A DNA stretch of 64,000 bases from Escherichia phage ph0011. Shown here piece after piece: positions 1-30,034 of this stretch. The notes beneath the pieces were generated by a model, which had not been told where the DNA came from, did no database searches, and saw nothing but the letters and a program-made list of their open reading frames with translations. Position 1 is the stretch's first letter; every line of letters begins with the position of its first letter. The position numbers were made by a program, and so were the translations under genes. The stretch lies in sequence record OP557969.1, one strand, 5' to 3'.

Positions 1-51
1 AAAGTACACATACAGAGAAGTACTAAAACTTATCTCTATATAAGGTAATAT

Positions 52-240
52 ATGAACAATTTTGAGTACTACTTCAATAAACTAAATTCCATAGAACAAA
101 ATATGCACAAAACATATATTAAGTACTATCAATCATCTGCATCTGGAATTAAAAATATATCAATAAAGATTATCACTAACCGTGTACTGACACCTGAACG
201 TGATATGTATATTGATGTACTGAAACTCATCTCTGTGTAA
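52..240 (+). CDS. small hypothetical protein, divergent FamA-like
   Basis: 62-aa ORF; N-terminus MNNFEYY resembles the downstream KEYYT mini-protein array. Confidence 0.4.
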   Translation: MNNFEYYFNKLNSIEQNMHKTYIKYYQSSASGIKNISIKIITNRVLTPERDMYIDVLKLISV

Positions 241-250
241 GGAATAAACT

Positions 251-430
251 ATGAACAATTTCTATATAGAACACATAAACATTAAAGACCGTTTCATGTA
301 CGACACCTTCGTGAAGTACTACAACCTCGCAACTAACAGTACTAAAAATATTAATCTCAATAGCTGCATACACCAAGCACTAACAAAAGATAATCCCTTC
401 AGGGAAATCCTCGCTCTCGCATCTGTATAA
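251..430 (+). CDS. small hypothetical protein (about 59 aa), FamA-like N-terminus
   Basis: ATG shortly after upstream stop; N-terminus MNNFYIEH; below ORF-track length cutoff; coordinates hand-read. Confidence 0.35.
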   Translation: MNNFYIEHINIKDRFMYDTFVKYYNLATNSTKNINLNSCIHQALTKDNPFREILALASV

Positions 431-441
431 AGGAATCTAAT

Positions 442-1104
442 ATGAAACTTAATCAACACAGCAAACAATACCTTAAGCACTTTAAATACCTCAACAGTAT
501 TCAAGCAGAATCAGTTACATCATCTTATACGTATCACCCGAATATACTAAAGAAACGAAATAAAAAGAAAAAATCCAGAAATGTTCTCGTATCTAAGAAC
601 CTCAAATCGTACTTGAAGAAAAATAATATAGCTCTTGCTTTTATTAGTATCTATAATACTGATTTAAAAGTATTGAGTACTAATACCAGCACAAAAGCAC
701 TAAAGAATGCATCTATCTATATACACATTGATAATATCCCGTGCACTATAATTCTATCTTTCGGGAATGTATACTTCTTCGGGAATTGTAATAGCACCCA
801 TGATATCAGTACTGCACAATTCCAAATCGGAGATATGTACTGCATGGGTTCAGAAAAAATACACGATAACATGCACTTCTTCCAAAAGCAACGTACTAAC
901 GAAACTGATACAGTACTGCAATTCCTCAAAGAACTAGAACACAAAGAATTATCCGACGAAGAAGAATTCATGTACAGTACTGTAATCGATAATCCAGGAC
1001 TCTATAAAAACGCGTACAAACTAACAAAACATGTCCAGGAACTTATCAGTACTGATAAGAAATTTCATCACCTCATTACGTATATAACCTCTACAATGTC
1101 CTAA
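442..1104 (+). CDS. hypothetical protein (220 aa)
   Basis: Long ORF; RBS-like AAGGAA upstream; no recognisable domain. Confidence 0.5.
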   Translation: MKLNQHSKQYLKHFKYLNSIQAESVTSSYTYHPNILKKRNKKKKSRNVLVSKNLKSYLKKNNIALAFISIYNTDLKVLSTNTSTKALKNASIYIHIDNIPCTIILSFGNVYFFGNCNSTHDISTAQFQIGDMYCMGSEKIHDNMHFFQKQRTNETDTVLQFLKELEHKELSDEEEFMYSTVIDNPGLYKNAYKLTKHVQELISTDKKFHHLITYITSTMS

Positions 1105-1125
1105 CTCTAATATATAGATACTAAT

Positions 1126-1317
1126 ATGAAAAATCAATACAAAGAACTATACACAAAATATTTCCCCCAGTACCTGATCGAACACCTGGAACATACCAGA
1201 AACTTAAACACTAAAATTAATAAAGCAAGATTCATTATGTGCACTAAATCAGTAATAGATACTACCAACTATAATAGCGTACTATATCACATCCTGTACC
1301 TAACATTCGTGTACTAA
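1126..1317 (+). CDS. FamA mini-protein
   Basis: N-term KELYTKYFP, central MCTK, C-term LTFVY; tandem array. Confidence 0.55.
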   Translation: MKNQYKELYTKYFPQYLIEHLEHTRNLNTKINKARFIMCTKSVIDTTNYNSVLYHILYLTFVY

Positions 1318-1327
1318 AGAGAACAAT

Positions 1328-1510
1328 ATGCATAAAGAATACTACACAAATAAACTCCCTATGCATCTACAACACCTTATACCAATAAAACCTATTGGCA
1401 TAAAAGATCATGAAAAAATAATGTTCCAACAATGTACTAAGTACACCCTAATAGACGATGACAATCCATATATGCTGTACTATATAATAATGCTAACATT
1501 CAGGTACTAA
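1328..1510 (+). CDS. FamA mini-protein
   Basis: N-term MHKEYYT, C-term LTFRY. Confidence 0.55.
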   Translation: MHKEYYTNKLPMHLQHLIPIKPIGIKDHEKIMFQQCTKYTLIDDDNPYMLYYIIMLTFRY

Positions 1511-1511
1511 T

Positions 1512-1700
1512 ATGAATAACCACAAAGAATACTACACACAATTCCTCCCCAGCATTTTTGAACACTACGCCAGATATAAAGTCCCTCTGGATAACGAGTT
1601 GGCAGTACTCGGATTCAATAACTGCATAGAACGAAGTATAGAAAATAGTAGTACATATGACCAATTGTTTAACACTATCCTACTTATATTCAGGTACTAA
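1512..1700 (+). CDS. FamA mini-protein
   Basis: N-term HKEYYTQF, C-term LIFRY; 1-nt spacer to upstream stop. Confidence 0.55.
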   Translation: MNNHKEYYTQFLPSIFEHYARYKVPLDNELAVLGFNNCIERSIENSSTYDQLFNTILLIFRY

Positions 1701-1701
1701 T

Positions 1702-1890
1702 ATGCATAAAGAATACTACACAAAAGATTTTCCAATGTACCTCAAAACTAATCTATTAGATAAACCCCGCAACATCAATGCTCAAAACGATAAAGTGTAC
1801 TTTACTATGTGCACTAAAGCATGTATACTAGATTTTGATAGCTATCATCGAGTACTGTATCATACCCTGTACCTAGCTTTCGTGTACTAA
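1702..1890 (+). CDS. FamA mini-protein
   Basis: Start moved to internal MHKEYYT (track ORF 1657 reads through upstream gene); C-term LAFVY. Confidence 0.55.
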   Translation: MHKEYYTKDFPMYLKTNLLDKPRNINAQNDKVYFTMCTKACILDFDSYHRVLYHTLYLAFVY

Positions 1891-1900
1891 AGAGGCCAAT

Positions 1901-2107
1901 ATGAACGAACAGAAAGAATTTTACACCAAACACCTCAGTACATCAGAACAAATGTTTCTAAGGAGTGTATCACCTTTACGTTTAGATACACCACACGCCA
2001 GAGATTGCTTTAATAATTGTATACGTATTACTCTAGAAGCTTTAGAAAACAATAACAAAAATATTCAGTACTCAGGCGTAATGGGACTAATATTCTTCTA
2101 TGAATAA
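1901..2107 (+). CDS. FamA mini-protein
   Basis: N-term KEFYTKHLS..EQMF, C-term IFFYE. Confidence 0.55.
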   Translation: MNEQKEFYTKHLSTSEQMFLRSVSPLRLDTPHARDCFNNCIRITLEALENNNKNIQYSGVMGLIFFYE

Positions 2108-2288
2108 CAAAGAATTCTACTTAAACCATCTGGAACTAAACTCCCAAATGCTTATACCACTAAAACCAATAGATATCAAGGATAAGAAAAATACCAAACA
2201 ATTCCACTACCACACACTATGTGCTATCAACCCAGATTATAATACATATAAATTGTTCTACATCATCACCCTAATACTCAGGTACTAA
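2100..2288 (+). CDS. FamA mini-protein
   Basis: N-term NKEFYLNHL, C-term LILRY; overlaps upstream stop. Confidence 0.5.
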   Translation: MNNKEFYLNHLELNSQMLIPLKPIDIKDKKNTKQFHYHTLCAINPDYNTYKLFYIITLILRY

Positions 2289-2289
2289 T

Positions 2290-2475
2290 ATGCACAAAGA
2301 ATACTACACACAATTCGTTAAAGAAAACTACAAACACGCCGTACACATAAAACCATTAAATTCTAATGACCCAAATACCATATTCTTGTTTAAGGACGCA
2401 ACACGTACAGTACTCAATACTAAAGATGAACAGGTGCAGTACGTATTCTTACTATTACTTATATACAGACACTAA
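2290..2475 (+). CDS. FamA mini-protein
   Basis: N-term MHKEYYTQF, C-term LIYRH. Confidence 0.55.
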   Translation: MHKEYYTQFVKENYKHAVHIKPLNSNDPNTIFLFKDATRTVLNTKDEQVQYVFLLLLIYRH

Positions 2476-2480
2476 CTAAT

Positions 2481-2690
2481 ATGAATACAGAACATAAAGA
2501 ATTCTATTCCAAACACCTCAGCCCCTCAGAACAAATGTTTATAAGATCTACACCACCATTAAGTACTGATACATATTTCGGCAGAGTATGCTACAATAAA
2601 TGTGTACAAATGACTTTAAACGCAAACGACAATAATAACAGTACTAACATGTACTCAGGTATAATAGGTATACTATTTCTATATGATTAA
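2481..2690 (+). CDS. FamA mini-protein
   Basis: N-term EHKEFYSKHLSPSEQMF, close paralog of 1901..2107. Confidence 0.55.
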   Translation: MNTEHKEFYSKHLSPSEQMFIRSTPPLSTDTYFGRVCYNKCVQMTLNANDNNNSTNMYSGIIGILFLYD

Positions 2691-2865
2691 AGAACATAAA
2701 GACTTCTACATAAGAAAACTAACATTCGTCCCCGTAAAAATATACAAAGAATGCGACCCAAGATTATACCTGTGGCACTTCAATGAGTGCATAAAAGATT
2801 CTATATACCCTAAGAACTACAAAGAACAATTGTGCTCAGTACTAACACTAGTACTATCATATTAA
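2683..2865 (+). CDS. FamA mini-protein
   Basis: N-term KEHKDFY, C-term LVLSY; overlaps upstream stop. Confidence 0.5.
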   Translation: MIKEHKDFYIRKLTFVPVKIYKECDPRLYLWHFNECIKDSIYPKNYKEQLCSVLTLVLSY

Positions 2866-2878
2866 TAGAGATAATACT

Positions 2879-3082
2879 ATGAATAAAGAACATAAAAACT
2901 TCTATATAAGTAAACTAAAAGAAAATGAACAAGCATGGATTAGAACTATAATAATACTTCCATTTAATAGATACGCACTGAATAGATGTACACAGATTGC
3001 TATAGACCCTTATCCCATTGAAGAGGATGTACAGTACAATCAATACTACTATATCTTAATGCTTATATATAGACCTATATAG
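2879..3082 (+). CDS. FamA mini-protein
   Basis: N-term KEHKNFYISKL, C-term LIYRPI; RBS GAGA upstream. Confidence 0.55.
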   Translation: MNKEHKNFYISKLKENEQAWIRTIIILPFNRYALNRCTQIAIDPYPIEEDVQYNQYYYILMLIYRPI

Positions 3083-3098
3083 GAAATTACACAGGCGA

Positions 3099-3148
3099 AT
3101 TGTTAAAATTCAGCCTGCCATACGTCTGTATTGTTAAAATTCAGCCTG
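3099..3148. repeat. direct repeat ATTGTTAAAATTCAGCCTG x2
   Basis: Two 19-bp copies about 12 bp apart at start of non-coding hub. Confidence 0.6.
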
Positions 3149-3228
3149 GACAAATTCGATCACCAGGATTCTCTCCAGGCTAAACCACGTAACTCTACAG
3201 AGAAGCTATTAGCTTCTCTTTGTCATAT

Positions 3229-3460
3229 GTAGTCATAAGTAATCATATATAAACATTTAAGTAATCATTTATAATCACAGTAGTGAACAGTAGTGAGTAC
3301 TAGAGTACAGGAATGTGCACGTTTAATCAAGAACGTAGCAGTACTGATATGCCACTAAGTAGGCAGAGGAAGTCTGCCGTACTTTGTAGTTTCCAAGCTC
3401 CTTTTCCATTTTGCAAATTACATCAACTGTAATCAAAAGTAATCACATAATGATTAGTAC
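3229..3460. repeat. cluster of short direct repeats (GTAATCA about 5 copies, ACAGTAGTGA x2) and a GGCAGA/TCTGCC hairpin
   Basis: Seen by eye in non-coding sequence. Confidence 0.45.
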
Positions 3461-3489
3461 TGAATTATTACTTTCACCTTAATTTCAAT

Positions 3490-3560
3490 TACCCCTTTAC
3501 CCTTCGGGGTAAATGTATTTTTATCCATTTACCTTTGGGGTAAAATCCCATTACCCCTTG
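3490..3560 (+). other. cluster of consecutive short hairpins (TTACCC-TTCG-GGGTAA and variants)
   Basis: Three tandem GGGGTAA-containing inverted repeats, first with UUCG-type loop. Confidence 0.4.
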
Positions 3561-3744
3561 AGGCTCCAGCAAAAAGTTGGAAAGTACTCCATCGTAAATC
3601 TGGATCGTAAAAATTTTGGAGTACCTATGAAATAAAAGTTGGATCTTCGAAAGTTGAAATTTACGTTGGGACGTTTATGATTTGTGGGATATAATGAGTT
3701 TTGTAGCGATACAGTTTATACGATTTTAGAACTGCATAATGAAA

Positions 3745-3775
3745 GAAAGCTATTGACATTATGATTCAGTACTGT
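3745..3775 (+). promoter_or_regulatory. sigma70-type promoter with no ORF downstream
   Basis: TTGACA, about 16-bp spacer, TATAAT with TG upstream of -10. Confidence 0.5.
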
Positions 3776-4179
3776 ATAATGTTCTACATAGGGTGATGAC
3801 TTGCCGCAAACATTTCATTGACTCTACCTCCTGTCGTGAGACAGTACAGAAAAGATAGTTCCTCCTGTGGTGGTACATCTTTTTGAACCTCATGTAAAAA
3901 AACGTAATAACAGTACTGATATTAACAGAATGGTGTCAGTACTGACTTTAATCTAATACATTATGCCACCAGCACAAGCTGGTGGATTCCCTCTAACAGT
4001 ATTCAGTACTACATGATAGTCTTCATCCTCCTAGGGTAACATAGTGAGGGCTATTGTGGGAGTACTGAATACTCCTTTCAAAAGATAGAATAATGGTATA
4101 GTACCGACGGATTTTGGGCGTAGTTACCCTGGGTGGATTTTGGACGTAGATATGTCTAGCCCTCCAGAAGTCTGGAAGT

Positions 4180-4300
4180 AAAGATGGCTATCTATCTAGA
4201 CGGCTAAACGGCTAGATTTCTAGATGGCTGTATGGCTAGACGTTTGGATGGCTAAACGGCTAGATGGTTACACGTCTGGAAGTATAGACGGCTAAATCAA
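4180..4300. repeat. iteron-like array of GGCTA(GA) repeats
   Basis: At least 8 GGCTA copies at about 8-12 bp spacing, flanked by two GTCTGGAAGTA copies. Confidence 0.6.
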
Positions 4301-4634
4301 AATTTTTATTTTGTTTTTCCAATAGTTCCCCTACCGCGTGAGGATATTTTTCCCCGCAGTATCTGGAGTTAGATTTTTCTGAATCTGGAATCATTATCTA
4401 ATAAACTGGGGGCAATGTCAACCGCCTGGATGAATATTTTTAAAAAAATAATCTAGTACTGAATTTTGGGCGTAACTATGCACCCGGTGGGCTTGAGTCT
4501 TTCTCGACTTGATGGAACTATTATACAGTACTGAAAAAATAAAGCAATACCCTGGAAGCAAAAAAATTTTAATTAATTTGCTTGCTATTCTGGGCCGTAC
4601 TATGGTACTATTAATTCAGTACTGAGAAAGTGCT

Positions 4635-4722
4635 TTTACCTGCTAGGGTGCGGGAGTGTATCCTTTTTAAATTTTATGAATTTTGGGCAGATCTCCGCAC
4701 CCTGTGGGTTAGTGCCTTGTGT
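4635..4722. repeat. inverted pair of GGGTGCG-core element (AGGGTGCGGGAG ... CTCCGCACCCT)
   Basis: Arms about 45 bp apart; same core recurs at about 6530, 13520, 17240, 20520 and 23260. Confidence 0.5.
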
Positions 4723-4992
4723 CCGGCTTATGTAGTAATTATACGCTTTTTCAGTACTGAGTCAATACCTAAAAACAAAATAATTGAAAATAATTTAACG
4801 CGTTTAAACGGCCCGTAAAGCCCTGGAATGATTAGAATGGTGCAAATGTATAGCTTAGGTGTATTAATGCGTTAGAATGCGTCTGAGGCCGTTTTACGGG
4901 GTATAGGGATGATTTAGTGGATTGATTCAGTACTGAATAATAGTACTCCTATATAGAAAGAAAACTATTTTAAAAGTATTTGTAGAAAGTAC

Positions 4993-5051
4993 TTGCACCG
5001 TACTGATAAAAGCGTATAATGTTTTACATCGAGAGCGGGAACACTTCCCGC
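4993..5051 (+). promoter_or_regulatory. early promoter plus 5' leader hairpin cassette
   Basis: AGTACTTGCAC -35, TATAAT -10, GTTTTACAT, then GCGGGAA-cac-TTCCCGC hairpin, then RBS. Confidence 0.6.
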
Positions 5052-5075
5052 TACACATTAAGAGAGATTAAAACG

Positions 5076-5438
5076 ATGGCGACTCAAATCAATAAAATTA
5101 TTGCTAACCTGGTTAACTTCCGTGAAGAGATGAAAGGTCTTCCGGCTGAAACGGTAAAAATTCACATTTCAGCTTATCGGGAACTTATTGCAATGTTACC
5201 GCTTAAGCGTGAACAATACGCCGCTACCGTGATGCTTGATGCGATGATCAATAAGATGATCGCCAGTGATTTAACGATGGTTTATCAGTACATGGGCGAA
5301 AATTTCGCGGTGTCTGGTAAGCCAGTACCAGGGATGGCAACTACTGAGGAATTGCACGGTTTAAATTTAAAACAAGATGCATGGGATAATATGCCTCGTT
5401 TCCTGGTATGGGCTGACAGTGGCAAAATTTACAAATAA
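5076..5438 (+). CDS. hypothetical protein (120 aa)
   Basis: Start at MATQINK after hairpin and RBS AAGAGAG; track N-extension covers promoter. Confidence 0.65.
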   Translation: MATQINKIIANLVNFREEMKGLPAETVKIHISAYRELIAMLPLKREQYAATVMLDAMINKMIASDLTMVYQYMGENFAVSGKPVPGMATTEELHGLNLKQDAWDNMPRFLVWADSGKIYK

Positions 5439-5530
5439 GTTTAATAAAGTACTTGCATACTAAGTTAAAACAAGTATAATACTTTCTATCAGGTGGGGAA
5501 TAGTTCCCCACTATATAAGAGGATTAAAAA

Positions 5531-5770
5531 ATGGCTAAATCAAAAATGTTCTTAGGTCACAAAAACAAAACTCATTGGAATGTAAGCCTTTGGATTAATA
5601 ACGATGAATCATTATACCGGTTGGCCCTGGACTTTATTGCCGCCAATACTAATCGCAATGATGCGGCCCGTCATATGATGTTATTTTTAGAACAGACTGG
5701 ACAAGATAAAACACCGGACGGATTCAAATATAGCACTACTGCGATCCGTGCGGCGATGGTTGGAATGTAA
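5531..5770 (+). CDS. hypothetical protein, paralog of 7569..7808
   Basis: Shared GHKNKTHWNVSLWINN and TPDGFKYSTTAIRAAMVGM; own cassette. Confidence 0.7.
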   Translation: MAKSKMFLGHKNKTHWNVSLWINNDESLYRLALDFIAANTNRNDAARHMMLFLEQTGQDKTPDGFKYSTTAIRAAMVGM

Positions 5771-5860
5771 TAGAATAGAATTTATTTAAAGTACTATCAT
5801 TTTTTGCGATAGTACTTTATAATAGTGTTTTATTCATACACCAACGATAAGGGCAATAGC

Positions 5861-6127
5861 ATGAATATTAAGTATTTTGCGACGCGTGAACAAGCTCGGA
5901 AGGCGGCGAAAGTGGAAGGTGCAACGTTTAAAGATATGGGCATACAATCGGAACGTGGTAAACGTTGGGCCATTGTAAAGCGTAGTACAGCCAGATCATT
6001 ACAGTACTGGTTAGCGGCTTTAAAAAGTCCTGCTAGTGTATCGCGTCGAGTGGTAGAAATAAAGCTCGACCGTAAGGGGAATCGTGTTACCGTGTACCGT
6101 ACTAAAAAGATAGCAGTACTTGAATAA
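5861..6127 (+). CDS. hypothetical protein, paralog of 18547..18942
   Basis: Shared FYATRE..FKDMG..DRKGNRVTVY; start at MNIKY after RBS. Confidence 0.6.
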   Translation: MNIKYFATREQARKAAKVEGATFKDMGIQSERGKRWAIVKRSTARSLQYWLAALKSPASVSRRVVEIKLDRKGNRVTVYRTKKIAVLE

Positions 6128-6130
6128 AAA

Positions 6131-6195
6131 GTACTTGCAAACTATGCTTAAAAGCGTATAATACTTTATATCAGGGCGGGGGAATAGTTCCCGCC
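6131..6195 (+). promoter_or_regulatory. early promoter plus 5' leader hairpin cassette
   Basis: AGTACTTGCAA, TATAAT, GCGGGGGAA-tag-TTCCCGCC hairpin. Confidence 0.6.
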
Positions 6196-6214
6196 TATAA
6201 CCGGGAGTAATAAA

Positions 6215-6445
6215 ATGACTAATATGTATATGACTGAAGTTAAAACCGTAAAAGATACTACCACGAATAAAACTACTTACTTACAGCGGATCTGTGGTGT
6301 CTGGCAACGTATCAGCAAATCAAAGTACTTTAAATTAACATCATATGCCAATCGTTCGGATTCATTCAGTACTGAAATAAAAGGTAATAAAGTACACCAA
6401 TACGGCACTTATTATTATTATAGCCTGGACGCGATTGCAGTATAA
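6215..6445 (+). CDS. hypothetical protein (76 aa)
   Basis: ATG directly after hairpin and AGGAGT RBS. Confidence 0.6.
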   Translation: MTNMYMTEVKTVKDTTTNKTTYLQRICGVWQRISKSKYFKLTSYANRSDSFSTEIKGNKVHQYGTYYYYSLDAIAV

Positions 6446-6730
6446 GTAGTTTACAAATCTTTACAATTGCCGGTATTGACTTAAAATGTCAGTACTGGCA
6501 TAATGTATTCATTGGCAGATAAGCCGTGGCCCATAGGGTGCGGAAGTGTATCTATAGAAAAATTAGTTTAGTACAGTTACAATTGTGCACCCTGTGGGTT
6601 AGCTGTTGTCATGGGGTATATTATGCCAGTACTTGATAATGCTGTCAATACTTTTTTACTATTCAGTACTGAAAACTATTTGATAAAAAGTACTTGCAAA
6701 CTATGTTTAAAGGCGTATAATGTTTTACAT

Positions 6731-6803
6731 CAGGACGGGGAACGAAATAAGTAACTTCCCGTTAAGTAGCCCAGGAGTAAGGCATACGAAAAACTCCCCT
6801 GAT
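6731..6803 (+). other. structured about 75-nt leader element (copy 1), candidate small RNA or regulatory leader
   Basis: Starts at promoter +1 (CAGGACGGGGAACG...ACTCCCCTGAT), followed by a second promoter; near-identical copy at 17354-17424. Confidence 0.45.
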
Positions 6804-6871
6804 AAAATAGTTTGACAATTGTTTTTAAAAGCGTATAATACTTACATCAACTACTGAATGAGGGTTACAAA

Positions 6872-7483
6872 ATGAAAACTATCACTACTACTACTTATGT
6901 TATGGATTTTTCTGAATTGAACGCAGAACAAAAAACGTCAGCTATCGAACTGGTTCGGGAACGTGAAAAAAACTTAAACGACGATTATTTTTCTGAAAGT
7001 GAAATTGAATACTATAAAGAAACAGTACTACCGGAATATGGCATTAATGACGCAGAAATACAATTCAGTGGTTTTTGGTCGCAAGGTGACGGTGCATCAA
7101 TTAGTACTGACCACGTTGACGCAGTGAAGTTTTTACGTAAGGTAAGAGCATTAACTAAGTATCGCTCAATCCGTCACCTGCTGAATGAAGATGATTTGGC
7201 GATGAGTGTAAAGCGTTCTCACTCCCGCTACTCACATGAGAACACTGTAAGCGGGTACATTGAATCGGCTTACACTGATTTAACCGCAAAACAAGAAACG
7301 TTAGTTAATGAGCTTGAGGAACTGCTCACTGATACTATTCGTGAATTGTCACGCAAGTTATACCGTGATTTAGAGAATGCATATGAGGATCAATTCACTA
7401 CTGAAAACATCGTATCACTGATTGAGGGTAACGAATATCAATTCAATGTTATTGATGGCGTAGTAGAATCAATTGCATATTAA
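6872..7483 (+). CDS. hypothetical protein (203 aa)
   Basis: ORF with RBS GAGGG; tandem promoters upstream; no confident family call. Confidence 0.65.
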   Translation: MKTITTTTYVMDFSELNAEQKTSAIELVREREKNLNDDYFSESEIEYYKETVLPEYGINDAEIQFSGFWSQGDGASISTDHVDAVKFLRKVRALTKYRSIRHLLNEDDLAMSVKRSHSRYSHENTVSGYIESAYTDLTAKQETLVNELEELLTDTIRELSRKLYRDLENAYEDQFTTENIVSLIEGNEYQFNVIDGVVESIAY

Positions 7484-7485
7484 AA

Positions 7486-7550
7486 AGTACTTGCAAACTA
7501 AGTTTAAAAGCGTATAATACTTTATATCGAGGCGGGGAATGGTTCCCCGC
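7486..7550 (+). promoter_or_regulatory. early promoter plus 5' leader hairpin cassette
   Basis: AGTACTTGCAA, TATAAT, GCGGGGAA-tgg-TTCCCCGC hairpin. Confidence 0.6.
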
Positions 7551-7568
7551 TCAAACGAGGATTTAAAA

Positions 7569-7808
7569 ATGGCTAGTACTAAAACTTACAACGGTCACAA
7601 AAACAAAACTCATTGGAATGTTTCCTTATGGATTAATAACGGTGAGTCATTGTATCGGCTTGCTCAAAGTTGCATCGCACAATGTAAAACTAAAGATATT
7701 GCGGCCCAATGTATGTACCGCAGATTAAAAGCCAACGGTACTACTACAACGCCGGACGGATTCAAGTATAGCACTACGGCGATCCGTGCTGCAATGGTTG
7801 GAATGTAA
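7569..7808 (+). CDS. hypothetical protein, paralog of 5531..5770
   Basis: Start at MASTKTYNGHKNKTHW after hairpin and RBS. Confidence 0.7.
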   Translation: MASTKTYNGHKNKTHWNVSLWINNGESLYRLAQSCIAQCKTKDIAAQCMYRRLKANGTTTTPDGFKYSTTAIRAAMVGM

Positions 7809-7864
7809 CATTCAGTACTGAATCAATGGCGGGTGTGGTTCCCGCCTTTACTGAGGATTATCTA

Positions 7865-8146
7865 ATGAGTAAAGTAATTAACTATACAGTACTAAGCAAG
7901 TCATTATCTATTAGCCAGTGCACCGATGGTTTTTGGCTGTACGATGAAACGCGTGGTATGAATTTAGCTATGCAGGAGAAAACTCCTGATGCGGCATATC
8001 TTAAAGCACTGGAATACTACCAGAAGCGTTTAACGGAAGTAGAAAACAATTATCAGAATCTCAAAGAGAAAGTAGATAATTTCGTTGGTCAATTCGTTGA
8101 CGATGACGAAGGGCACTACTGCGACCGTTGCGGATCTTACAGTTAA
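7865..8146 (+). CDS. hypothetical protein (93 aa), C-terminal CxxC
   Basis: Start at MSKVINY after GGCGGG..CCCGCC hairpin and RBS GAGGAT. Confidence 0.55.
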   Translation: MSKVINYTVLSKSLSISQCTDGFWLYDETRGMNLAMQEKTPDAAYLKALEYYQKRLTEVENNYQNLKEKVDNFVGQFVDDDEGHYCDRCGSYS

Positions 8147-16481: not shown

Positions 16482-16542
16482 ATTGACAATGCAATCCAGT
16501 ACTGTATAATAGTTTACATGAAGGGGAGAAATGATTCTCCCC
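16482..16542 (+). promoter_or_regulatory. early promoter plus 5' leader hairpin cassette
   Basis: TTGACA, AGTACTGTATAAT, GGGGAGAA-atga-TTCTCCCC perfect palindrome. Confidence 0.65.
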
Positions 16543-20892: not shown

Positions 20893-20951
20893 TTGACAAA
20901 GTATATCAGTACTGTATAATAGTTTACATCAAGGGGAGAATAGTTCTCCCC
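20893..20951 (+). promoter_or_regulatory. early promoter plus 5' leader hairpin cassette (duplicate C)
   Basis: TTGACA, AGTACTGTATAAT, GGGGAGAA-tag-TTCTCCCC; near-identical copy at 21385-21442. Confidence 0.65.
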
Positions 20952-21384: not shown

Positions 21385-21442
21385 TGACAAAGTATATCAG
21401 TACTGTATAATAGTTTACATCAAGGGGAGAATAGTTCTCCCC
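21385..21442 (+). promoter_or_regulatory. early promoter plus 5' leader hairpin cassette (duplicate D)
   Basis: Near-identical to 20893-20951. Confidence 0.65.
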
Positions 21443-24756: not shown

Positions 24757-24984
24757 ATGATTGATAATAATTTTAAGGGAGTCCCTGTGCGTATTTTAAC
24801 TCAAGCAGAACACCACGAAAGACTTATTAACAATATGGCTATGATAATGTATAAGTCACATAAACGTGGTATTGCCTATAAGCATGAATTAGTACTGGAA
24901 CTATTCATTGGGACTAACTATCAGGAAAGGTATGTCAACGATTGGATTTGGTATTTAATTGAAGATATAACGAGTAAACTATGA
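24757..24984 (+). CDS. FamB small protein
   Basis: Motif FIGTNYQERYV; first array member. Confidence 0.55.
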   Translation: MIDNNFKGVPVRILTQAEHHERLINNMAMIMYKSHKRGIAYKHELVLELFIGTNYQERYVNDWIWYLIEDITSKL

Positions 24985-25175
24985 TAATTTTAACTAAAGA
25001 AGAATATCAATCACTGTTACGTAAAAACTACGTAAAGATTTACAATACAGACACACACGTAGAACGAATGGAGTTATACCTTTTGATTACATTGGGAACT
25101 AACTATCAGGAAAGATGGGTGATTCAATATATGGATACATTGAAAAATAAAATATTGTCCACGAGGAAACAATGA
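24981..25175 (+). CDS. FamB small protein
   Basis: LGTNYQERWV; ATGA overlap. Confidence 0.55.
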   Translation: MIILTKEEYQSLLRKNYVKIYNTDTHVERMELYLLITLGTNYQERWVIQYMDTLKNKILSTRKQ

Positions 25176-25381
25176 AAACTATAACACGAACCAAATCATT
25201 AGGTCTTATCTTGAAATACATGGACTTAATGGTGGATATCAGCAAAGACCTTCCTAAAACTGCAATTGAAGTTGCAAGAGCAGAGTACCGTCTATTAGCA
25301 GTACTGAATACTAACTACCAGGATGAATATGTTGACGATTGGATTCTATCATTAAAAAAAGATATAAAGAGTAAACTATGA
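25172..25381 (+). CDS. FamB small protein
   Basis: LNTNYQDEYV; ATGA overlap. Confidence 0.55.
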   Translation: MKTITRTKSLGLILKYMDLMVDISKDLPKTAIEVARAEYRLLAVLNTNYQDEYVDDWILSLKKDIKSKL

Positions 25382-25590
25382 TTTTTTTAACGCCAGAAGA
25401 ATATAAGAAACGTTTCAATTCTGTCCAGATTGACATTTTACTTATATACAATTCAAATGCAGACCTTGGCTTATCAAGGGTATTAGAAAAAGATTTACTT
25501 ATGGGTGCATTTTTGGATACAGACTTTCAGGTGTATTATGTAGGGGAATACTTAATTGCACTTCAGAATTACATTAAGAGTAAACTATGA
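25378..25590 (+). CDS. FamB small protein
   Basis: LDTDFQVYYV; C-term YIKSKL; ATGA overlap. Confidence 0.55.
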   Translation: MIFLTPEEYKKRFNSVQIDILLIYNSNADLGLSRVLEKDLLMGAFLDTDFQVYYVGEYLIALQNYIKSKL

Positions 25591-25799
25591 ATAGCATTAA
25601 CTCAAATCAATATACCGAACGCGTCGCTGCAAGGCAACTTGAAATCCTCATATTATATGAAGAGGCTGATGATTTGAACTTAGCATCAGTATTGGAAAAT
25701 GAAATACTATTGGGTGCATTCCTTGGTACTGACTATCAGGAGCATTTCTTGAATGAGTATATAGTTGCCCTCCAGAAATACATTAAGAGCAAACTATGA
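25587..25799 (+). CDS. FamB small protein
   Basis: LGTDYQEHFL; close paralog of 25378; ATGA overlap. Confidence 0.55.
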   Translation: MNSINSNQYTERVAARQLEILILYEEADDLNLASVLENEILLGAFLGTDYQEHFLNEYIVALQKYIKSKL

Positions 25800-26014
25800 A
25801 ACATTTAAGTAATTACGAGAAGAATAAAATTATCGTTGCTGCAATAAACAAATATTTTACACTTCCTCACACAGAAGGTTTATGTGTAAGGGAACACAGG
25901 ATAAACACCACCGATATACGCATGATGGCTGTACTGGGGACTAACTTTCAGGAAGAGTATGTTGTTGCACACATAGTTGCCCTCACTGATTTAATAAGGG
26001 ACAAATGCAAATGA
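25796..26014 (+). CDS. FamB small protein
   Basis: LGTNFQEEYV; ATGA overlap. Confidence 0.55.
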   Translation: MKHLSNYEKNKIIVAAINKYFTLPHTEGLCVREHRINTTDIRMMAVLGTNFQEEYVVAHIVALTDLIRDKCK

Positions 26015-26229
26015 AAGACATAAACACTCAAGAATATCTTAAACGATTAGAACAAGGGAAGAACTTTAGACTTCAAGTTTACGATGATGAATCACTAACA
26101 TCCAATGAAAAGTATGTTTTACTAACAGACTCATCATTAATACCATTTGTGGGAACGAACTATCAGGAGGTTATGGTAGACAACCACATCACGGCCTTAA
26201 AATGTTATGTCAGGGATTTAGGTAAATGA
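26011..26229 (+). CDS. FamB small protein
   Basis: VGTNYQEVMV; start set at ATGA overlap. Confidence 0.5.
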   Translation: MKDINTQEYLKRLEQGKNFRLQVYDDESLTSNEKYVLLTDSSLIPFVGTNYQEVMVDNHITALKCYVRDLGK

Positions 26230-26483
26230 AACACTTAACACTGGATGAATATGAAACTATAGTTCGTAAACTAACCCCTATAGCAAGGATAGTCTACGAT
26301 GACCCCAGCCTTACATGGAACCAAATGCGAGCTAAAGTTAATGAGCTATGGTTGTTGTACTTTATGGGGACTCAATATCAAGAGAAATATTGTACCGAGT
26401 ATATTGAACAACTAATGAATGTTATACAGGATAAACTAGATGATTATTGGCTCACAAAGCATGAAGATTTTATCAGGGGTTGA
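26226..26483 (+). CDS. FamB small protein
   Basis: MGTQYQEKYC; ATGA overlap. Confidence 0.55.
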   Translation: MKHLTLDEYETIVRKLTPIARIVYDDPSLTWNQMRAKVNELWLLYFMGTQYQEKYCTEYIEQLMNVIQDKLDDYWLTKHEDFIRG

Positions 26484-26727
26484 GTATCAGACTGCCCTCT
26501 TCTCTCTTCTAAACACCCTCCGCACGAACAATAAACTTTATAATTCCAGTACTGCTGATATTGTCAACGCTGATGTATATCTTAATAAATTTATAGGGAC
26601 TAACTATCAAGAACTGTTTGTTTTACGATATATCTCTACATTAAGAAACGAAATATCAGATAAAACCCGTCAAGCCAGAAGAGAATGGAAGAATGCGACA
26701 AAGACTAAATCACAAAATGTATTGTAA
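26461..26727 (+). CDS. FamB small protein
   Basis: IGTNYQELFV; start at internal MKILSGVEY. Confidence 0.5.
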   Translation: MKILSGVEYQTALFSLLNTLRTNNKLYNSSTADIVNADVYLNKFIGTNYQELFVLRYISTLRNEISDKTRQARREWKNATKTKSQNVL

Positions 26728-26944
26728 ACTATTACAGGAACTGGCACAGAAACACTATGATACAATATCTTCCATATTACCCTATGATATCATGCGTTTA
26801 ATTCATAGTGAGGCAGAGATGTTAGTACTGATGACCGGTACTGATAAAATAGCAATCACCAGATCGATAGAGCAATATATTGATGCACACTGTCAATGTA
26901 TTAGAACTGAGATATGGAGGCGAGTAAATGAAAGTACTGAATGA
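26693..26944 (+). CDS. FamB-like small protein (divergent)
   Basis: MTGTDKIAIT in motif position; start uncertain. Confidence 0.4.
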   Translation: MRQRLNHKMYCKLLQELAQKHYDTISSILPYDIMRLIHSEAEMLVLMTGTDKIAITRSIEQYIDAHCQCIRTEIWRRVNESTE

Positions 26945-27143
26945 GTTTCAGTATCATTGGAGGTTACAAGCAATAAGAGGGAAAGTTGTTAGTATTTCTT
27001 TAGACAAGTCTATTGCACAAGAGGACAAATGTGTTATAATAGCTGAAATGAAGTTGGGTGCTTTCGTAGGGACAAACTATCAAAACATCTACACAGACGT
27101 ATTATTAAGTGCCTTACGCAACAAGGTGTTATCCAGAGAATGA
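26928..27143 (+). CDS. FamB small protein
   Basis: VGTNYQNIYT. Confidence 0.55.
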   Translation: MKVLNEFQYHWRLQAIRGKVVSISLDKSIAQEDKCVIIAEMKLGAFVGTNYQNIYTDVLLSALRNKVLSRE

Positions 27144-27358
27144 GAAAATTAATAGGTTACGAATATGTTAAGCTTCTGAAAACCTGTAGTAGTAGCAGGG
27201 TAAAGATTCAATCTGATAAGAGCATCCCTGCCAACCTAAAACATGTAATGATAGCTGAACTCTATGCAGGGGCACTCATAGGGACAAACTATCAACAAAT
27301 GTATATAGACATGTGGGTTGATGCATTAGTCAAGGAGATCCGAAGTAAATGCAAATGA
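27140..27358 (+). CDS. FamB small protein
   Basis: IGTNYQQMYI; ATGA overlap. Confidence 0.55.
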   Translation: MRKLIGYEYVKLLKTCSSSRVKIQSDKSIPANLKHVMIAELYAGALIGTNYQQMYIDMWVDALVKEIRSKCK

Positions 27359-27567
27359 TTAATTTAAGTAAAGATGAATATTATGTTCGTCTTGCAAAAA
27401 CTTATCCAGCACGTAACGCCGTTTATAATAGTAACATTATTGAACGCTCAAAGAAGTTGATCGTAGTAAATGAGATTAAGATGCTTTCAGTCTTAGGAAC
27501 AAACTATCAAGAGAAAGCTGTACTGTTGTTAATTGATGCCCTCAAGAGAGAGATACAAAGTAAATGA
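27355..27567 (+). CDS. FamB small protein
   Basis: LGTNYQEKAV; start at ATGA overlap. Confidence 0.5.
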   Translation: MINLSKDEYYVRLAKTYPARNAVYNSNIIERSKKLIVVNEIKMLSVLGTNYQEKAVLLLIDALKREIQSK

Positions 27568-27800
27568 TTCATTTATCTTACCATGAATATCAAAAACGTT
27601 TAAATGCATCAAGGAATATAAGGATTCAAATCTTCAATAATAAAAGATTGAAATCTGAAGCCAAAAAAATCAAAATGATAGAAGCAGAGTTATGCAACTT
27701 CCTGGGGACGAACTATCAGGATGATAAGGTAACAAACTATCTTAGAGAACTAATGATTAGTATCAAGAGTAAATGCAATGCTTTGGAGAATAAAAAATGA
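27564..27800 (+). CDS. FamB small protein
   Basis: LGTNYQDDKV; ATGA overlap. Confidence 0.55.
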   Translation: MIHLSYHEYQKRLNASRNIRIQIFNNKRLKSEAKKIKMIEAELCNFLGTNYQDDKVTNYLRELMISIKSKCNALENKK

Positions 27801-28054
27801 TCAATTTAAGTAAAGATGAATATACCGAGCGTATGACAAAAATTACGCACAAACGTAATACAATCTATCACAACCAAGAAATTCAACACAGTAAGAAAAT
27901 GATCATGATGCGTGAGTTAAAGATGGGTGTATTCTTGGGAACAAACTATCAAGAGCCAGAAGTAAATCGCTTAATTGCTGAGTTACTAATGGAAATCAAA
28001 GGTAAGCTGTACTTTTATCAAATGACCCAACCACTGAGGTGTACTGAACGATGA
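27797..28054 (+). CDS. FamB small protein
   Basis: LGTNYQEPEV; ATGA overlap. Confidence 0.55.
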   Translation: MINLSKDEYTERMTKITHKRNTIYHNQEIQHSKKMIMMRELKMGVFLGTNYQEPEVNRLIAELLMEIKGKLYFYQMTQPLRCTER

Positions 28055-28311
28055 GTACTATGAGTACTATGAATAAAATTAATAACATCAGATTATCAGA
28101 AAGATTTGATAGAATTGGTGAAGCCAGTAGAAGATACAATAGGGAATATGGTCATTTAAGCTTTTCTTTGGAAAAGAGATATGAACTTGAAGCAGAGTTT
28201 AAAATGCAGAGTCTCTTAGGTACACAGTACCAAGATCATTATGTAGAAAATTGGATTTCACTTCTAATCCAATCAATTTATGTAAGGAGTATTAAATGCA
28301 AAATGGAATGA
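28051..28311 (+). CDS. FamB small protein
   Basis: LGTQYQDHYV; ATGA overlap. Confidence 0.55.
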   Translation: MSTMSTMNKINNIRLSERFDRIGEASRRYNREYGHLSFSLEKRYELEAEFKMQSLLGTQYQDHYVENWISLLIQSIYVRSIKCKME

Positions 28312-28526
28312 TATACTTAACCAACGAAGAATTTCAAGAAAAAATGATTAAATCAGGTAAGATTACTCTTGAACATATACCAAATCAATCAGTATATGAA
28401 GTAGCAGCGAATGTATTGTTTCAGAAGCTACCTTACTTTCTGGGAACAGATAAACAAGAATTTTTGGTACAAAATATGATTGAGCATCTTCTAATGAGTA
28501 TTAGGGAAAAAGTAAATGCAACATGA
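28296..28526 (+). CDS. FamB small protein (LGTDKQ variant)
   Basis: FLGTDKQEFLV. Confidence 0.5.
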   Translation: MQNGMIYLTNEEFQEKMIKSGKITLEHIPNQSVYEVAANVLFQKLPYFLGTDKQEFLVQNMIEHLLMSIREKVNAT

Positions 28527-28776
28527 AATTATATACTTAACACATGATGAGTTAAAAGAAAGACTAGATAAATCCAAAAGACTTACAAATCAACTTCCTC
28601 ACAACCCAAACCAAACCCCAGCGGAAAGGAGTGCAGAAGTTTTATTCCAGTCTTTGTCATACCTTCTTGGAACTGATAGGCAGGAGTATCACGTTGAACG
28701 TATAATTAAATATCTTAAAATTACTATTCAGGAAAAGATATATGAACATCAATATAAAAATCTTGACGGTCAATGA
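28516..28776 (+). CDS. FamB small protein (LGTDRQ variant)
   Basis: LLGTDRQEYHV; close paralog of 28296. Confidence 0.5.
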   Translation: MQHEIIYLTHDELKERLDKSKRLTNQLPHNPNQTPAERSAEVLFQSLSYLLGTDRQEYHVERIIKYLKITIQEKIYEHQYKNLDGQ

Positions 28777-28993
28777 ATATCATAATATTATAATGAAGAC
28801 TAATAGTGCAATTTCTAAAAAATCAAATCCAAAATACATACTGGAGCACACATTTGAAGAACGTCAATTAGCTTTAGTTGAAGCAAAACTTCTTGCACTC
28901 CTAGGAACAAACTATCAAGAAGAGTACGTTAGAAAACTAATATACCTTTTAACTAAACACATCAGGAAAAGAAATGCAGTACTTGACCGATGA
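28742..28993 (+). CDS. FamB small protein
   Basis: LGTNYQEEYV. Confidence 0.5.
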   Translation: MNINIKILTVNEYHNIIMKTNSAISKKSNPKYILEHTFEERQLALVEAKLLALLGTNYQEEYVRKLIYLLTKHIRKRNAVLDR

Positions 28994-29183
28994 CGAATAC
29001 GGTGTTATCATCCTTGATGTTATCAATAAAGAATACCACAGGAAACAACGTTACGCTTGTTATGAAGATAAGCAGCTTTCTATAGCTGAACAACAATTAG
29101 TTCATTTATTAGGAACAAACTATCAAGAACAATGCACTGAACGTTACCTGTATCTTCTGTCGAGGAAAGCACAAAGATTATGA
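28974..29183 (+). CDS. FamB small protein
   Basis: LGTNYQEQCT. Confidence 0.5.
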   Translation: MQYLTDDEYGVIILDVINKEYHRKQRYACYEDKQLSIAEQQLVHLLGTNYQEQCTERYLYLLSRKAQRL

Positions 29184-29395
29184 AAATTTTAAGCCACAGT
29201 GAACAAACAGAATTGTTAATCTTTAATACAAGTAAATTCTTAAACATAACATTGTCTGATATAGATGAGGATGAAAAAGAGTTACTTAGAGCAGATTTAA
29301 GAGTTCTTTTATATATTGGAACTAACTTCCAAGAGCAATTCGTCGAGGACTACATCGATGAACTAAAGTCTGCTATCCAACGGAAATACAAATGA
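29180..29395 (+). CDS. FamB small protein
   Basis: IGTNFQEQFV; ATGA overlap. Confidence 0.55.
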   Translation: MKILSHSEQTELLIFNTSKFLNITLSDIDEDEKELLRADLRVLLYIGTNFQEQFVEDYIDELKSAIQRKYK

Positions 29396-29628
29396 AAATT
29401 CTTTCAAGTTCTGAATACCACGAACTATTAAGTAGTTTAATTCTAAAGTTGTTTATAACAAAAAGCACAAAATTACCGGATGAAGAAGTACGTGTTCTAG
29501 TAAGTGAAGTATATGTTAAAGCTACTCTAGGAACTAATTATCAAGAATGTAATATTAATGATTATATCAATGATCTAAAAAGGTATATACAAAACAAATG
29601 CGAATCATTACCGAAGAAGAATACCTAA
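29392..29628 (+). CDS. FamB small protein
   Basis: LGTNYQECNI; ATGA overlap. Confidence 0.55.
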   Translation: MKILSSSEYHELLSSLILKLFITKSTKLPDEEVRVLVSEVYVKATLGTNYQECNINDYINDLKRYIQNKCESLPKKNT

Positions 29629-29834
29629 CAATCATAAATGGACTATTTTTGAAGTTATTTGCCATTAACACATCAAAAATACCAGATACTGATAAAATTA
29701 TTAAGTTAAATGAAATCTACGTTCAAGCTACTCTAGGAACTAACTATCAAGATGCCAATATGTATAATTACATTAATACACTCAAAAGGGTAATAAAATT
29801 AAAATGTACAAACAGCCAATACACAAACCTCTAG
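29598..29834 (+). CDS. FamB small protein
   Basis: LGTNYQDANM; close paralog of 29392. Confidence 0.5.
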   Translation: MRIITEEEYLTIINGLFLKLFAINTSKIPDTDKIIKLNEIYVQATLGTNYQDANMYNYINTLKRVIKLKCTNSQYTNL

Positions 29835-30034
29835 GAACAGCAGAATACATTGAACTAATGGCAGCAAACTTCTCATCCTTTCAGAAACTGATGCAAGAAT
29901 CAAATAATGATTTAGAATATCATATCAAAAGTTCAGATTTAAGATTGCTACTCACTCTAGGAACAGACAGTCAGTACCAATTCGTACAGGAACATATTAG
30001 AGCACTTTTAAATGGCATCAGGGATAAACTATGA
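29804..30034 (+). CDS. FamB small protein
   Basis: LGTDSQYQFV. Confidence 0.5.
   Translation: MYKQPIHKPLGTAEYIELMAANFSSFQKLMQESNNDLEYHIKSSDLRLLLTLGTDSQYQFVQEHIRALLNGIRDKL

What the first reader, a model, noticed from the sequence alone, without database searches (positions are those of the whole stretch)
1126..3082. Third independent tandem array: about 10 KEYYT mini-proteins (FamA)
Ten consecutive 60-69 aa ORFs share an N-terminal x-[HN]-KE[YF]Y-[TS] motif, a central C-[TNF]-[KN]-C or [FM]-C-T-K segment, and a C-terminal Y-x-x-L-x-L-x-F-[RV]-Y. Two alternating subtypes are visible (KEYYT...MCTK versus KEFY...SPSEQMF...CxNxC). Spacers are 1-12 nt or overlapping. Two more divergent FamA-like ORFs lie at 52-240 and 251-430. 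So the window holds three unrelated expanded mini-protein families.
Basis: seen in the sequence. Interest (0 to 1): 0.65.

Follow-up and report, generated by a model that had tools for sequence, protein, structure and literature searches.

The report
Tandem mini-protein family in jumbo coliphage
Ten back-to-back genes in a giant E. coli phage encode related 60-69-residue helical proteins found only in this phage genus; the array is real and under selection, and its function is unknown, most likely early-infection proteins that bind host components.

Summary
Ten + strand ORFs at 1126-3082 form one protein family (leave-one-out HMM z = 14-31 against shuffles). All ten match PHROG 11711, a family of unknown function.

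The window comes from a 121Q/PBECO4-like jumbo coliphage (Asteriusvirus). The family occurs only in that clade: 35 GenBank phages, and 32 representatives at 50% identity among 1.84 billion proteins. Each phage carries 10-13 copies at one conserved locus, drawn from 19 orthogroups with gain, loss and one translocation.

Orthologue dN/dS is 0.1-0.5, so the genes are coding and constrained. AlphaFold2 gives a confident all-helical mini-domain (pLDDT 87) with no structural relative.

- No transmembrane segment is predicted.
- The metal-binding Cys pair is not supported: one Cys sits at a hydrophobic core position and is sometimes Ala; the second is present in 17 of 67 members.
- The "alternating subtypes" are not alternating.
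- ORFs 52-240 and 251-430 are only weakly linked to the family.

The genes form a tightly packed, probably translationally coupled operon. Its conserved sigma70-type promoter lies upstream of the window. The proteins were not detected in phAPEC6 virions.

The family is an uncharacterised orphan, already deposited as "hypothetical protein". It is one of many lineage-specific expansions in this genome. Interest is moderate to low.

The parts
1126..1317 (+). Family member 1 (63 aa; orthogroup Q). No orthologue at 60% identity or more in the nine compared phages; a near-identical protein exists in metagenome data (P0023).
   Evidence: z=21.6; PHROG 11711, E=5e-14
1328..1510 (+). Family member 2 (60 aa; orthogroup K). 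This is the protein whose structure was predicted.
   Evidence: z=27.1; E=6e-26; pLDDT 87; dN/dS 0.11-0.38
1512..1700 (+). Family member 3 (62 aa; orthogroup F). A 1-nt spacer separates it from the previous stop (AGGTACTAATATG).
   Evidence: (dN/dS 0.12-0.29)
1702..1890 (+). Family member 4 (62 aa from the ATG at 1702; orthogroup B). The ORF opens at 1657, but the upstream 15 codons overlap member 3 and are not part of the family domain.
   Evidence: (121Q gene 261 is annotated from the equivalent ATG)
1901..2107 (+). Family member 5 (68 aa; orthogroup A; long 'SxxEQMF...CFNNC' subtype). In most relatives this orthogroup lies upstream of the 220-aa gene instead.
   Evidence: (z=31.5)
2100..2288 (+). 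Family member 6 (62 aa; orthogroup C). Its start overlaps the stop of member 5 by 8 nt (ATGAATAA). It has no Cys at the family's usual position.
2290..2475 (+). Family member 7 (61 aa; orthogroup D). It contains no Cys at all.
2481..2690 (+). Family member 8 (69 aa; orthogroup H; second copy of the long subtype, 70% DNA identity to 1907-2107).
   Evidence: (84 bits to member 5)
2683..2865 (+). Family member 9 (60 aa; orthogroup I). Its start overlaps the previous stop by 8 nt.
   Evidence: z=14.2; E=2.5e-6
2879..3082 (+). Family member 10 (67 aa; orthogroup G). It is the last gene of the array in the window and in seven of the eight compared phages.
52..240 (+). Small ORF (62 aa) of a second mini-protein subfamily in the same operon. 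Its relationship to the ten is plausible but weakly supported.
   Evidence: hhalign prob 13%, E=2e-3; pLDDT 70, four helices; dN/dS about 1.4
251..430 (+). Small ORF (59 aa), paralogue of 52-240 (37.7 bits).
   Evidence: dN/dS 0.3-0.5
442..1104 (+). 220-aa gene embedded in the array in every relative examined (split into shorter ORFs in SD-1_S14 and CMSTMSU). It matches PHROG 29152 (unknown function), is not related to the family, and carries four CAGTACTG sites.
   Evidence: (E=4e-112)
3362..3378 (+). Terminator-like hairpin (GGCAGAGGAAGTCTGCC) about 280 nt after the last array gene, conserved in JP4. It is the candidate 3' end of the operon; a second hairpin lies at 3496-3513.

Best explanation
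The array is the downstream part of one polycistronic operon of an Asteriusvirus (121Q/PBECO4-like) jumbo phage.

Shown:
- It encodes 10 paralogues here, and 10-13 in relatives, of a clade-restricted family of 57-69-aa proteins.
- The genes are under purifying selection.

Predicted:
- The proteins are soluble, and the fold is a compact four-helix mini-domain. The conserved residues (Y6, L10, P22, L23, F33, C36, L41, Y50, L54, L56, [FY]58) form its hydrophobic core. The loops and helix surfaces vary between paralogues.

Inferred with good support:
- The operon is transcribed by host RNA polymerase from a conserved TTGACA-17-TAC(T/A)AT promoter just upstream of the window.
- Only the first gene has a strong Shine-Dalgarno sequence. 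The following cistrons are translationally coupled through 1-nt spacers or 8-nt overlaps.
- In the commonest junction type, AGG-TAC-TAA-T-ATG, the Arg codon of the conserved C-terminal 'R-Y' doubles as the ribosome-binding site of the next gene. Part of the C-terminal motif is therefore a nucleotide-level constraint.

Inferred, not shown:
- The proteins are non-virion products made early in infection.
- Each acts as a small stoichiometric binder of a different host target, or possibly a phage target, in host takeover or counter-defence.
- The family grew by unequal recombination at the conserved gene junctions and diversified by birth-and-death evolution.
For: - Family reality and coding status: leave-one-out z = 14-31; PHROG 11711 hits for all ten; orthologue dN/dS 0.1-0.5, pooled 0.33.
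- Clade restriction: 63 clusters at 90% identity. 32 hits among the 50%-identity representatives; 31 of them are 57-69 aa, and the one long hit is a spurious leucine-rich-repeat protein. 35 phage records, all from Escherichia or Salmonella jumbo phages.
- Fold: AF2 pLDDT 87, pTM 0.71, helices at 3-7, 12-15, 27-41 and 49-59. Conserved columns are 92-100% hydrophobic.
- Soluble: the maximum 19-residue Kyte-Doolittle mean is 0.84 or less.
- Operon: there is no strong internal promoter or terminator. The upstream promoter and the TAAGGAG site are invariant in 8 phages. Spacers are -8 to +13 nt.
- Embedded ribosome-binding site: all 28 'R-Y-stop, 1-nt spacer' junctions use AGG, against 12% AGG among Arg codons elsewhere in the family.
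- Non-virion: none of phAPEC6 gp540c-548c is among the 62 virion proteins, although a 4.7-kDa protein and the adjacent RCC1-like gp549 and gp551 were detected (PMC7247149).
- Early-region analogy: in the related phage CBB, RpoD-like promoters cluster in front of short hypothetical ORFs that the authors suspect are early host-takeover genes (PMC5259590).
- Birth-and-death evolution: 19 orthogroups in 9 phages, with a conserved backbone, presence/absence variation and a translocated member. The gene junctions are the best-conserved DNA, with 63-78-nt repeats at 78-83% identity.
Against: - There is no expression, proteomic or interaction data for any member.
- No known anti-defence or host-takeover protein resembles it by sequence or fold.
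- dN/dS of 0.33 is only modestly above the pooled value for neighbouring genes (0.27) and shows no positive selection.
- An almost wholly hydrophobic, Tyr-rich 11-residue C-terminal helix in a 60-aa protein could mean oligomerisation or membrane association rather than a monomeric binder.
- AGG is also used in the last gene of the array in six of eight phages, where no gene follows. The junction counts are not independent, because they come from only a few orthogroups.
- Small proteins are easily missed by virion mass spectrometry.
Confidence: 0.4

Rival explanations
1. The paralogues assemble with one another, or with phage proteins, into a homo- or hetero-oligomeric complex used in the phage's own development, for example DNA organisation alongside the neighbouring RCC1-like proteins, or regulation. 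They would not target the host.
For: - Tight translational coupling would give near-equal amounts of all members.
- The C-terminal helix is almost entirely hydrophobic or aromatic, and a 60-aa monomer can hardly bury it completely.
- The array always sits next to the block of RCC1-like genes and shares a divergent intergenic region with it.
- A core set of orthogroups is kept in nearly all the phages (B, C and D in all nine; A, F and G in eight).
Against: - Membership varies from 10 to 13 with frequent gain and loss, which is unusual for subunits of one complex.
- The proteins were not found in virions, whereas the RCC1-like neighbours were.
- pI ranges from 5.5 to 9.3, and no DNA-binding fold was detected.
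Confidence: 0.25
2. They are small membrane-associated proteins anchored by the hydrophobic C-terminal helix, acting in superinfection exclusion, lysis timing or envelope remodelling.
For: Every member has a conserved hydrophobic C-terminal segment (11-residue Kyte-Doolittle mean 1.4-2.3) ending in a basic or aromatic residue pair.
Against: - The hydrophobic stretch is only about 11 residues long.
- The best 19-residue window scores 0.84 or less, well below the value of about 1.6 usually taken for a membrane span.
- AF2 packs this helix confidently against helix 3, with pLDDT about 90 over residues 51-60.
- There is no signal peptide: the N-termini are polar.
Confidence: 0.1
3. They are a family of small metal-binding (zinc-ribbon-like) proteins using the Cys pair.
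For: Two window members (1901 and 2481) carry C-x3-C, and most members have one Cys.
Against: - Only 17 of 67 family members have both Cys. One window member has no Cys at all.
- The main Cys is replaced by Ala in 8 members.
- Both positions lie in the interior of a predicted helix in hydrophobic columns.
- Two ligands one helical turn apart do not make a metal site, and no zinc-ribbon family is hit.
Confidence: 0.03
4. The ORFs are not functional genes: they are chance ORFs or decaying duplicates in repetitive DNA.
For: They are short, have no function and no homologue outside one phage genus, and many are left unannotated in several GenBank records.
Against: - dN/dS is 0.1-0.5 in nearly all orthologue pairs compared.
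- Frames stay intact in 35 phages.
- Similarity between paralogues is at protein level, 19-53% identity, with little DNA similarity outside the junctions.
- The structure prediction is confident.
- The opposite strand has no ORF longer than 54 aa.
Confidence: 0.02

Closest known systems
PHROG 11711 (phage orthologous group, function unknown)
   Same: All ten window proteins match it end to end (E = 2.5e-6 to 2e-26; profile length 62). This is the same family.
   Different: PHROGs gives no function. None of the papers I searched mentions the tandem-array organisation, the copy-number variation, the fold or the coupling.
Early 'host-takeover' regions of Rak2-like and other large phages: many short hypothetical ORFs behind RpoD-type promoters (CBB_390-546 in phage CBB, PMC5259590). 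The SPO1 host-takeover module is a further example, from my own knowledge.
   Same: Short ORFs of unknown function, same-strand packing, a sigma70-type promoter, products not found in the virion.
   Different: Those regions are mostly collections of unrelated small genes. Here 10-13 genes are paralogues of one fold. No homologue of this family turned up outside the Escherichia and Salmonella Asteriusvirus-like phages.
Lineage-specific expansions in jumbo phages, for example about 35 copies of a zinc ribbon in Bacillus phage G (PMC7824862) and 11 RCC1-like proteins in phAPEC6 (PMC7247149)
   Same: One small domain expanded many-fold within a single jumbo-phage lineage.
   Different: The fold is different (all-helical, no metal site), the domain is much smaller than RCC1, and the copies form a strictly tandem, translationally coupled operon.
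Gene amplification in host-virus arms races: SegB-driven segmental amplification of anti-defence loci in phage T6 (PMC13096335). Poxvirus 'genomic accordions' are a further example, from my own knowledge.
   Same: Tandem copy-number change at one locus. Conserved junction sequences could support unequal recombination.
   Different: Those amplifications are recent, with near-identical copies. These paralogues are old (19-53% identity), and each has its own conserved orthologues. No homing endonuclease was seen at the locus. An anti-defence role has not been shown.

Membership tests
PHROG 11711 | Significant full-length match to the family profile HMM | tested here: met
   All ten ORFs match with E = 2.5e-6 to 2.3e-26, covering profile positions 1-3 to 60-62 of 62.
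PHROG 11711 | Membership of ORFs 52-240 and 251-430 | tested here: not met
   No PHROG hit at E <= 0.01. Family HMM E = 0.4-0.6. hhalign probability 13%.
Zinc-ribbon / Cys-pair metal-binding mini-proteins | Conserved set of metal ligands (usually four Cys/His in two knuckles) | tested here: not met
   One semi-conserved Cys (57/67, replaced by Ala in 8). The second Cys is present in 17/67. Both lie inside a predicted helix. There are no Pfam zinc-ribbon hits.
Small single-pass or tail-anchored membrane proteins | Hydrophobic segment long enough to span a bilayer (about 18-20 residues) | tested here: not met
   The best 19-residue Kyte-Doolittle mean is 0.03-0.84. The hydrophobic stretch is about 11 residues.
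Phage early / host-takeover genes | Transcription from a host sigma70-type promoter | tested here: inconclusive
   A conserved TTGACA-17-TAC(T/A)AT precedes the first gene of the operon in 8 relatives. This is a sequence match only, the site lies outside the window, and there is no transcript data.
Phage early / host-takeover genes | Expression early in infection and an effect on a host process | not testable with these tools
   The searches of the paper library found no transcriptome or functional study of an Asteriusvirus.
Known anti-defence proteins | Sequence or structural similarity to a characterised anti-defence protein | tested here: not met
Translationally coupled operon | Stop-start overlap or spacers of a few nt, with no independent strong ribosome-binding site for downstream cistrons | tested here: met
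   Spacers are 1, 1, 1, 5, 10, 10 and 13 nt, plus two 8-nt overlaps. The upstream sequences are weak or sit inside the preceding coding region, as in AGGTACTAATATG. Coupling itself has not been shown experimentally.

The most novel reading that the evidence does not exclude
The array is a natural library of mini-binders on one new helical scaffold. At least 19 orthogroups exist across the genus. Each would neutralise a different E. coli or Salmonella defence or housekeeping target early in infection. The set would be kept diverse by birth-and-death evolution and produced in fixed proportions by translational coupling. If so, this one locus would supply a dozen or more new anti-defence or host-takeover proteins with a previously unseen fold.
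Probability: 0.2. Interest if true: 0.65.

Novelty: new member of a known kind. Interest (0 to 1): 0.35.

Why it matters
Asteriusvirus phages are being developed for therapy, yet more than 80% of their genes have no known function. This locus shows that part of that unknown fraction is a structured, selectively maintained expansion of one tiny fold, and not a collection of random ORFs.

If the members prove to be host-directed binders, they would be compact new inhibitors and a case study in how jumbo phages diversify their accessory genes.

As it stands, the result is a careful description of an orphan family whose sequences are already deposited. It does not bear on a long-standing open question.

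Tried and rejected
- Pfam on the ten ORFs and on 67 family members: only scattered sub-threshold hits.
- PADLOC: nothing meaningful.
- PDB sequence profile search: E > 1.
- Foldseek against the PDB gave no hit. Against BFVD it returned only the family's own members.
- Exhaustive HMM search of 1.84 billion representatives: no relatives outside the clade. The single long hit (P0086, 533 aa) is a leucine-rich-repeat surface protein matched through low-complexity sequence.
- IMG/VR scan: it returned only phage 121Q itself.
- tRNA and Rfam searches of 1-8000: nothing.
- 'Pre-early genes at the genome end' idea: dropped. UE-S1 has T5-type terminal repeats, and the array lies at about 114 kb in that record.
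- CAGTACTG as purely a promoter element: only about 8-10 of 60 sites sit in a good -35/-10 context.
I repeated it with database homologues.
- Literature searches for any description of this family or its array found none.
Full report
**Source and setting.** The first 8 kb of the window match 121Q/PBECO4-like jumbo coliphages (genus Asteriusvirus, genomes of about 350-385 kb) at 87-92% DNA identity. The best match is phage BF17.

In every relative examined the locus has the same layout. A block of minus-strand RCC1-like genes comes first, then a short divergent intergenic region, then a long run of small plus-strand genes. A gene of about 220 aa is embedded in that run.

The window begins inside this run. 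In BF17 about eight further small ORFs lie upstream of the position matching window base 1.

- In a leave-one-out test, an HMM built from nine members scored the tenth at 29-65 bits. Two hundred shuffles of the same sequence averaged 0.5-2.1 bits with a maximum of 11.3, giving z = 14-31.
- The family HMM found nothing else with E < 1e-3 among 846 six-frame ORFs of the window and eight related loci.
- All ten match PHROG 11711, a family of unknown function. Pfam has nothing.
- Orthologues in other phages differ mostly at synonymous sites. dN/dS is 0.1-0.5 per pair and 0.33 pooled. These are therefore translated, constrained genes.

**Corrections to the description.**

- The two subtypes do not alternate. 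The long 'SxxEQMF...CxNxC' type consists of two members, 1901 and 2481. Their DNA is 70% identical. The remaining members form several looser groups.
- ORFs 52-240 and 251-430 belong to a separate subfamily. It has 31 clusters in the large protein database, again only from these phages. Its link to the ten is weak: HMM E = 0.4-0.6, and profile-profile probability 13% with E = 2e-3.
- The first two genes of the operon in relatives link somewhat better (probability 73%).
- A low-confidence model of ORF 52-240 (pLDDT 70) is all-helical with helices at similar positions.
- A common origin for all the small genes of the operon is therefore plausible but not established.

**Distribution and dynamics.**

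- A profile search of about 5.8 billion proteins found 63 clusters.
- An exhaustive HMM search of 1.84 billion representatives found 32. Of these, 31 are stand-alone proteins of 57-69 aa; the remaining one is a spurious repeat-protein hit.
- tblastn found the family in 35 phage records, 31 from Escherichia and 4 from Salmonella.
- Each genome holds 10-13 copies. Clustering at 62% identity gives 19 orthogroups in nine phages.
- The backbone order is conserved: F-B-C-D-H-I-G. Groups K, M, J, L, N, O, P, Q and S come and go.
- Group A sits either inside the array, as in the window, BF17 and CMSTMSU, or upstream of the 220-aa gene, as in the others.
- The window's order is Q-K-F-B-A-C-D-H-I-G. Q has no close orthologue in the compared genomes.
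- The best-conserved DNA lies at the gene junctions, as 63-78-nt repeats of 78-83% identity. These junctions are natural substrates for unequal recombination.

**Structure and chemistry.**

- With a 67-sequence alignment, AlphaFold2 gives a confident model: pLDDT 87, pTM 0.71, with helices at residues 3-7, 12-15, 27-41 and 49-59.
- The conserved columns are almost all hydrophobic, while the loops and helix surfaces vary.
- The best 19-residue hydropathy window scores 0.84 or less, so no membrane span is predicted.
- pI ranges from 5.5 to 9.3.
- The main Cys is a core position in helix 3 and is sometimes Ala. The second Cys occurs in a quarter of members. One window member has no Cys. A metal site is therefore not supported.
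- No structural relative was found in the PDB or BFVD beyond the family itself.

**Expression signals.**

- Inside the array there is no strong sigma70-like promoter or terminator.
- Upstream of the first operon gene, which lies outside the window, eight phages share an invariant TTGACA, a 17-nt spacer containing CAGTACTG (CTGGACTG in JNE01), TAC(T/A)AT, and a strong TAAGGAG site.
- Within the array the cistrons are separated by 1-13 nt or overlap by 8 nt.
- The commonest junction type is AGG-TAC-TAA-T-ATG. All 28 such junctions in nine phages use AGG for the penultimate Arg. AGG accounts for only 12% of Arg codons elsewhere in the family.
- I infer that this codon also serves as the ribosome-binding site of the next gene, so part of the C-terminal 'R-Y' motif is a nucleotide-level constraint. 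Two caveats apply. The junctions represent only a few independent orthogroups. The last gene of the array also often uses AGG.
- The genes are unusually poor in G (12%) and prefer C-ending Tyr, Phe and His codons (0.54, against 0.28-0.41 elsewhere in the window). This explains the reversed GC skew of the first 4 kb.
- Terminator-like hairpins follow the array at 3362-3378 and 3496-3513.

**What it most likely does.**

- No member has been studied; the paper searches found no mention of the family.
- In phAPEC6 none of the array proteins is among the 62 virion proteins. The adjacent RCC1-like proteins and a 4.7-kDa protein were detected.
- In the related phage CBB, RpoD-type promoters concentrate in front of short hypothetical ORFs that the authors regard as early host-takeover genes.

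From these points I favour non-virion, early, soluble mini-proteins that act by binding. They would share a conserved helical scaffold and carry paralogue-specific surfaces, expanded and pruned by birth-and-death evolution (confidence 0.4). The main rival is self-assembly into a phage complex (0.25). The coupled translation and the very hydrophobic C-terminal helix argue for that rival; the variable membership argues against it. Membrane anchoring (0.1), metal binding (0.03) and non-genes (0.02) are poorly supported or contradicted.

**Novelty.** The sequences are already public as 'hypothetical protein' and are grouped in PHROGs. What this work adds is the anatomy: the array structure, orthogroup dynamics, predicted fold, coupling signals, and rejection of the metal-binding idea.

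Lineage-specific expansions of small proteins are a known feature of jumbo phages. This window alone holds several, including a 30-member family mostly at 24.7-32.6 kb. I rate it a new member of a known kind, with moderate to low interest.

Noticed in passing
whole window; e.g. 3767-3774, 16497-16504, 20907-20914, 21398-21405: The palindromic octamer CAGTACTG (it contains a ScaI site) occurs 60 times against 0.73 expected. About 8-10 copies sit in the spacer of near-perfect sigma70 promoters (TTGACA-N8-CAGTACTG-TATAAT). The rest lie elsewhere, including inside genes. None falls in the ten-gene array, but four fall in the 220-aa gene. The array's own upstream promoter in relatives carries the motif. 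It may be a binding site for a phage regulator.
   Followed up: partly
window 3083-4630: A stretch of about 1.5 kb after the array has no ORF of 50 aa or more. It is also unannotated or gene-poor in relatives. It holds a perfect consensus promoter at 3753-3780 (+), 11/12 promoters on the minus strand at 4421-4393 and 4765-4738, several hairpins, and many AGTACTG copies. No tRNA or Rfam match was found. It could encode small RNAs or be a regulatory hub.
   Followed up: partly
window about 4180-4290: Iteron-like cluster of about ten short direct repeats (GGCTA[AG]A, mostly as ACGGCTA[AG]A or GATGGCTA), seen by eye in the sequence. It may be a protein-binding array or an origin-like element.
   Followed up: no
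window 3099-3117 and 3130-3148: Perfect 19-nt direct repeat ATTGTTAAAATTCAGCCTG, 31 nt apart, immediately downstream of the last array gene.
   Followed up: no
window 1-4000: GC skew is strongly negative (-0.25 and -0.13), while the rest of the window is positive even though all genes are on the + strand. The cause is that the array genes have only 12% G and prefer C-ending codons.
   Followed up: yes
window 24757-32644 (plus 43913-44104), and 30698-48691: Other expanded paralogue families: 30 ORFs of 58-95 aa, 9 ORFs of 104-137 aa and 7 ORFs of 146-157 aa, by BLAST clustering at E < 1e-4. All are unrelated to the family studied here.
   Followed up: partly
window 1-8000 (which part is shared was not mapped): Part of this stretch matches, mostly at 80-90% DNA identity, 179 phage records that include non-Asteriusvirus phages (Vequintavirinae, Phapecoctavirus, and records labelled Klebsiella or Campylobacter). 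The phAPEC6 annotation notes rV5- and Felix O1-like proteins at the genes matching window 5019-7483. This suggests a module exchanged between phage groups.
   Followed up: no
window 52-240: Against its BF17 and JP4 counterparts this ORF shows dN/dS of about 1.4. That could reflect relaxed or positive selection, or a comparison with a paralogue instead of the true orthologue.
   Followed up: no
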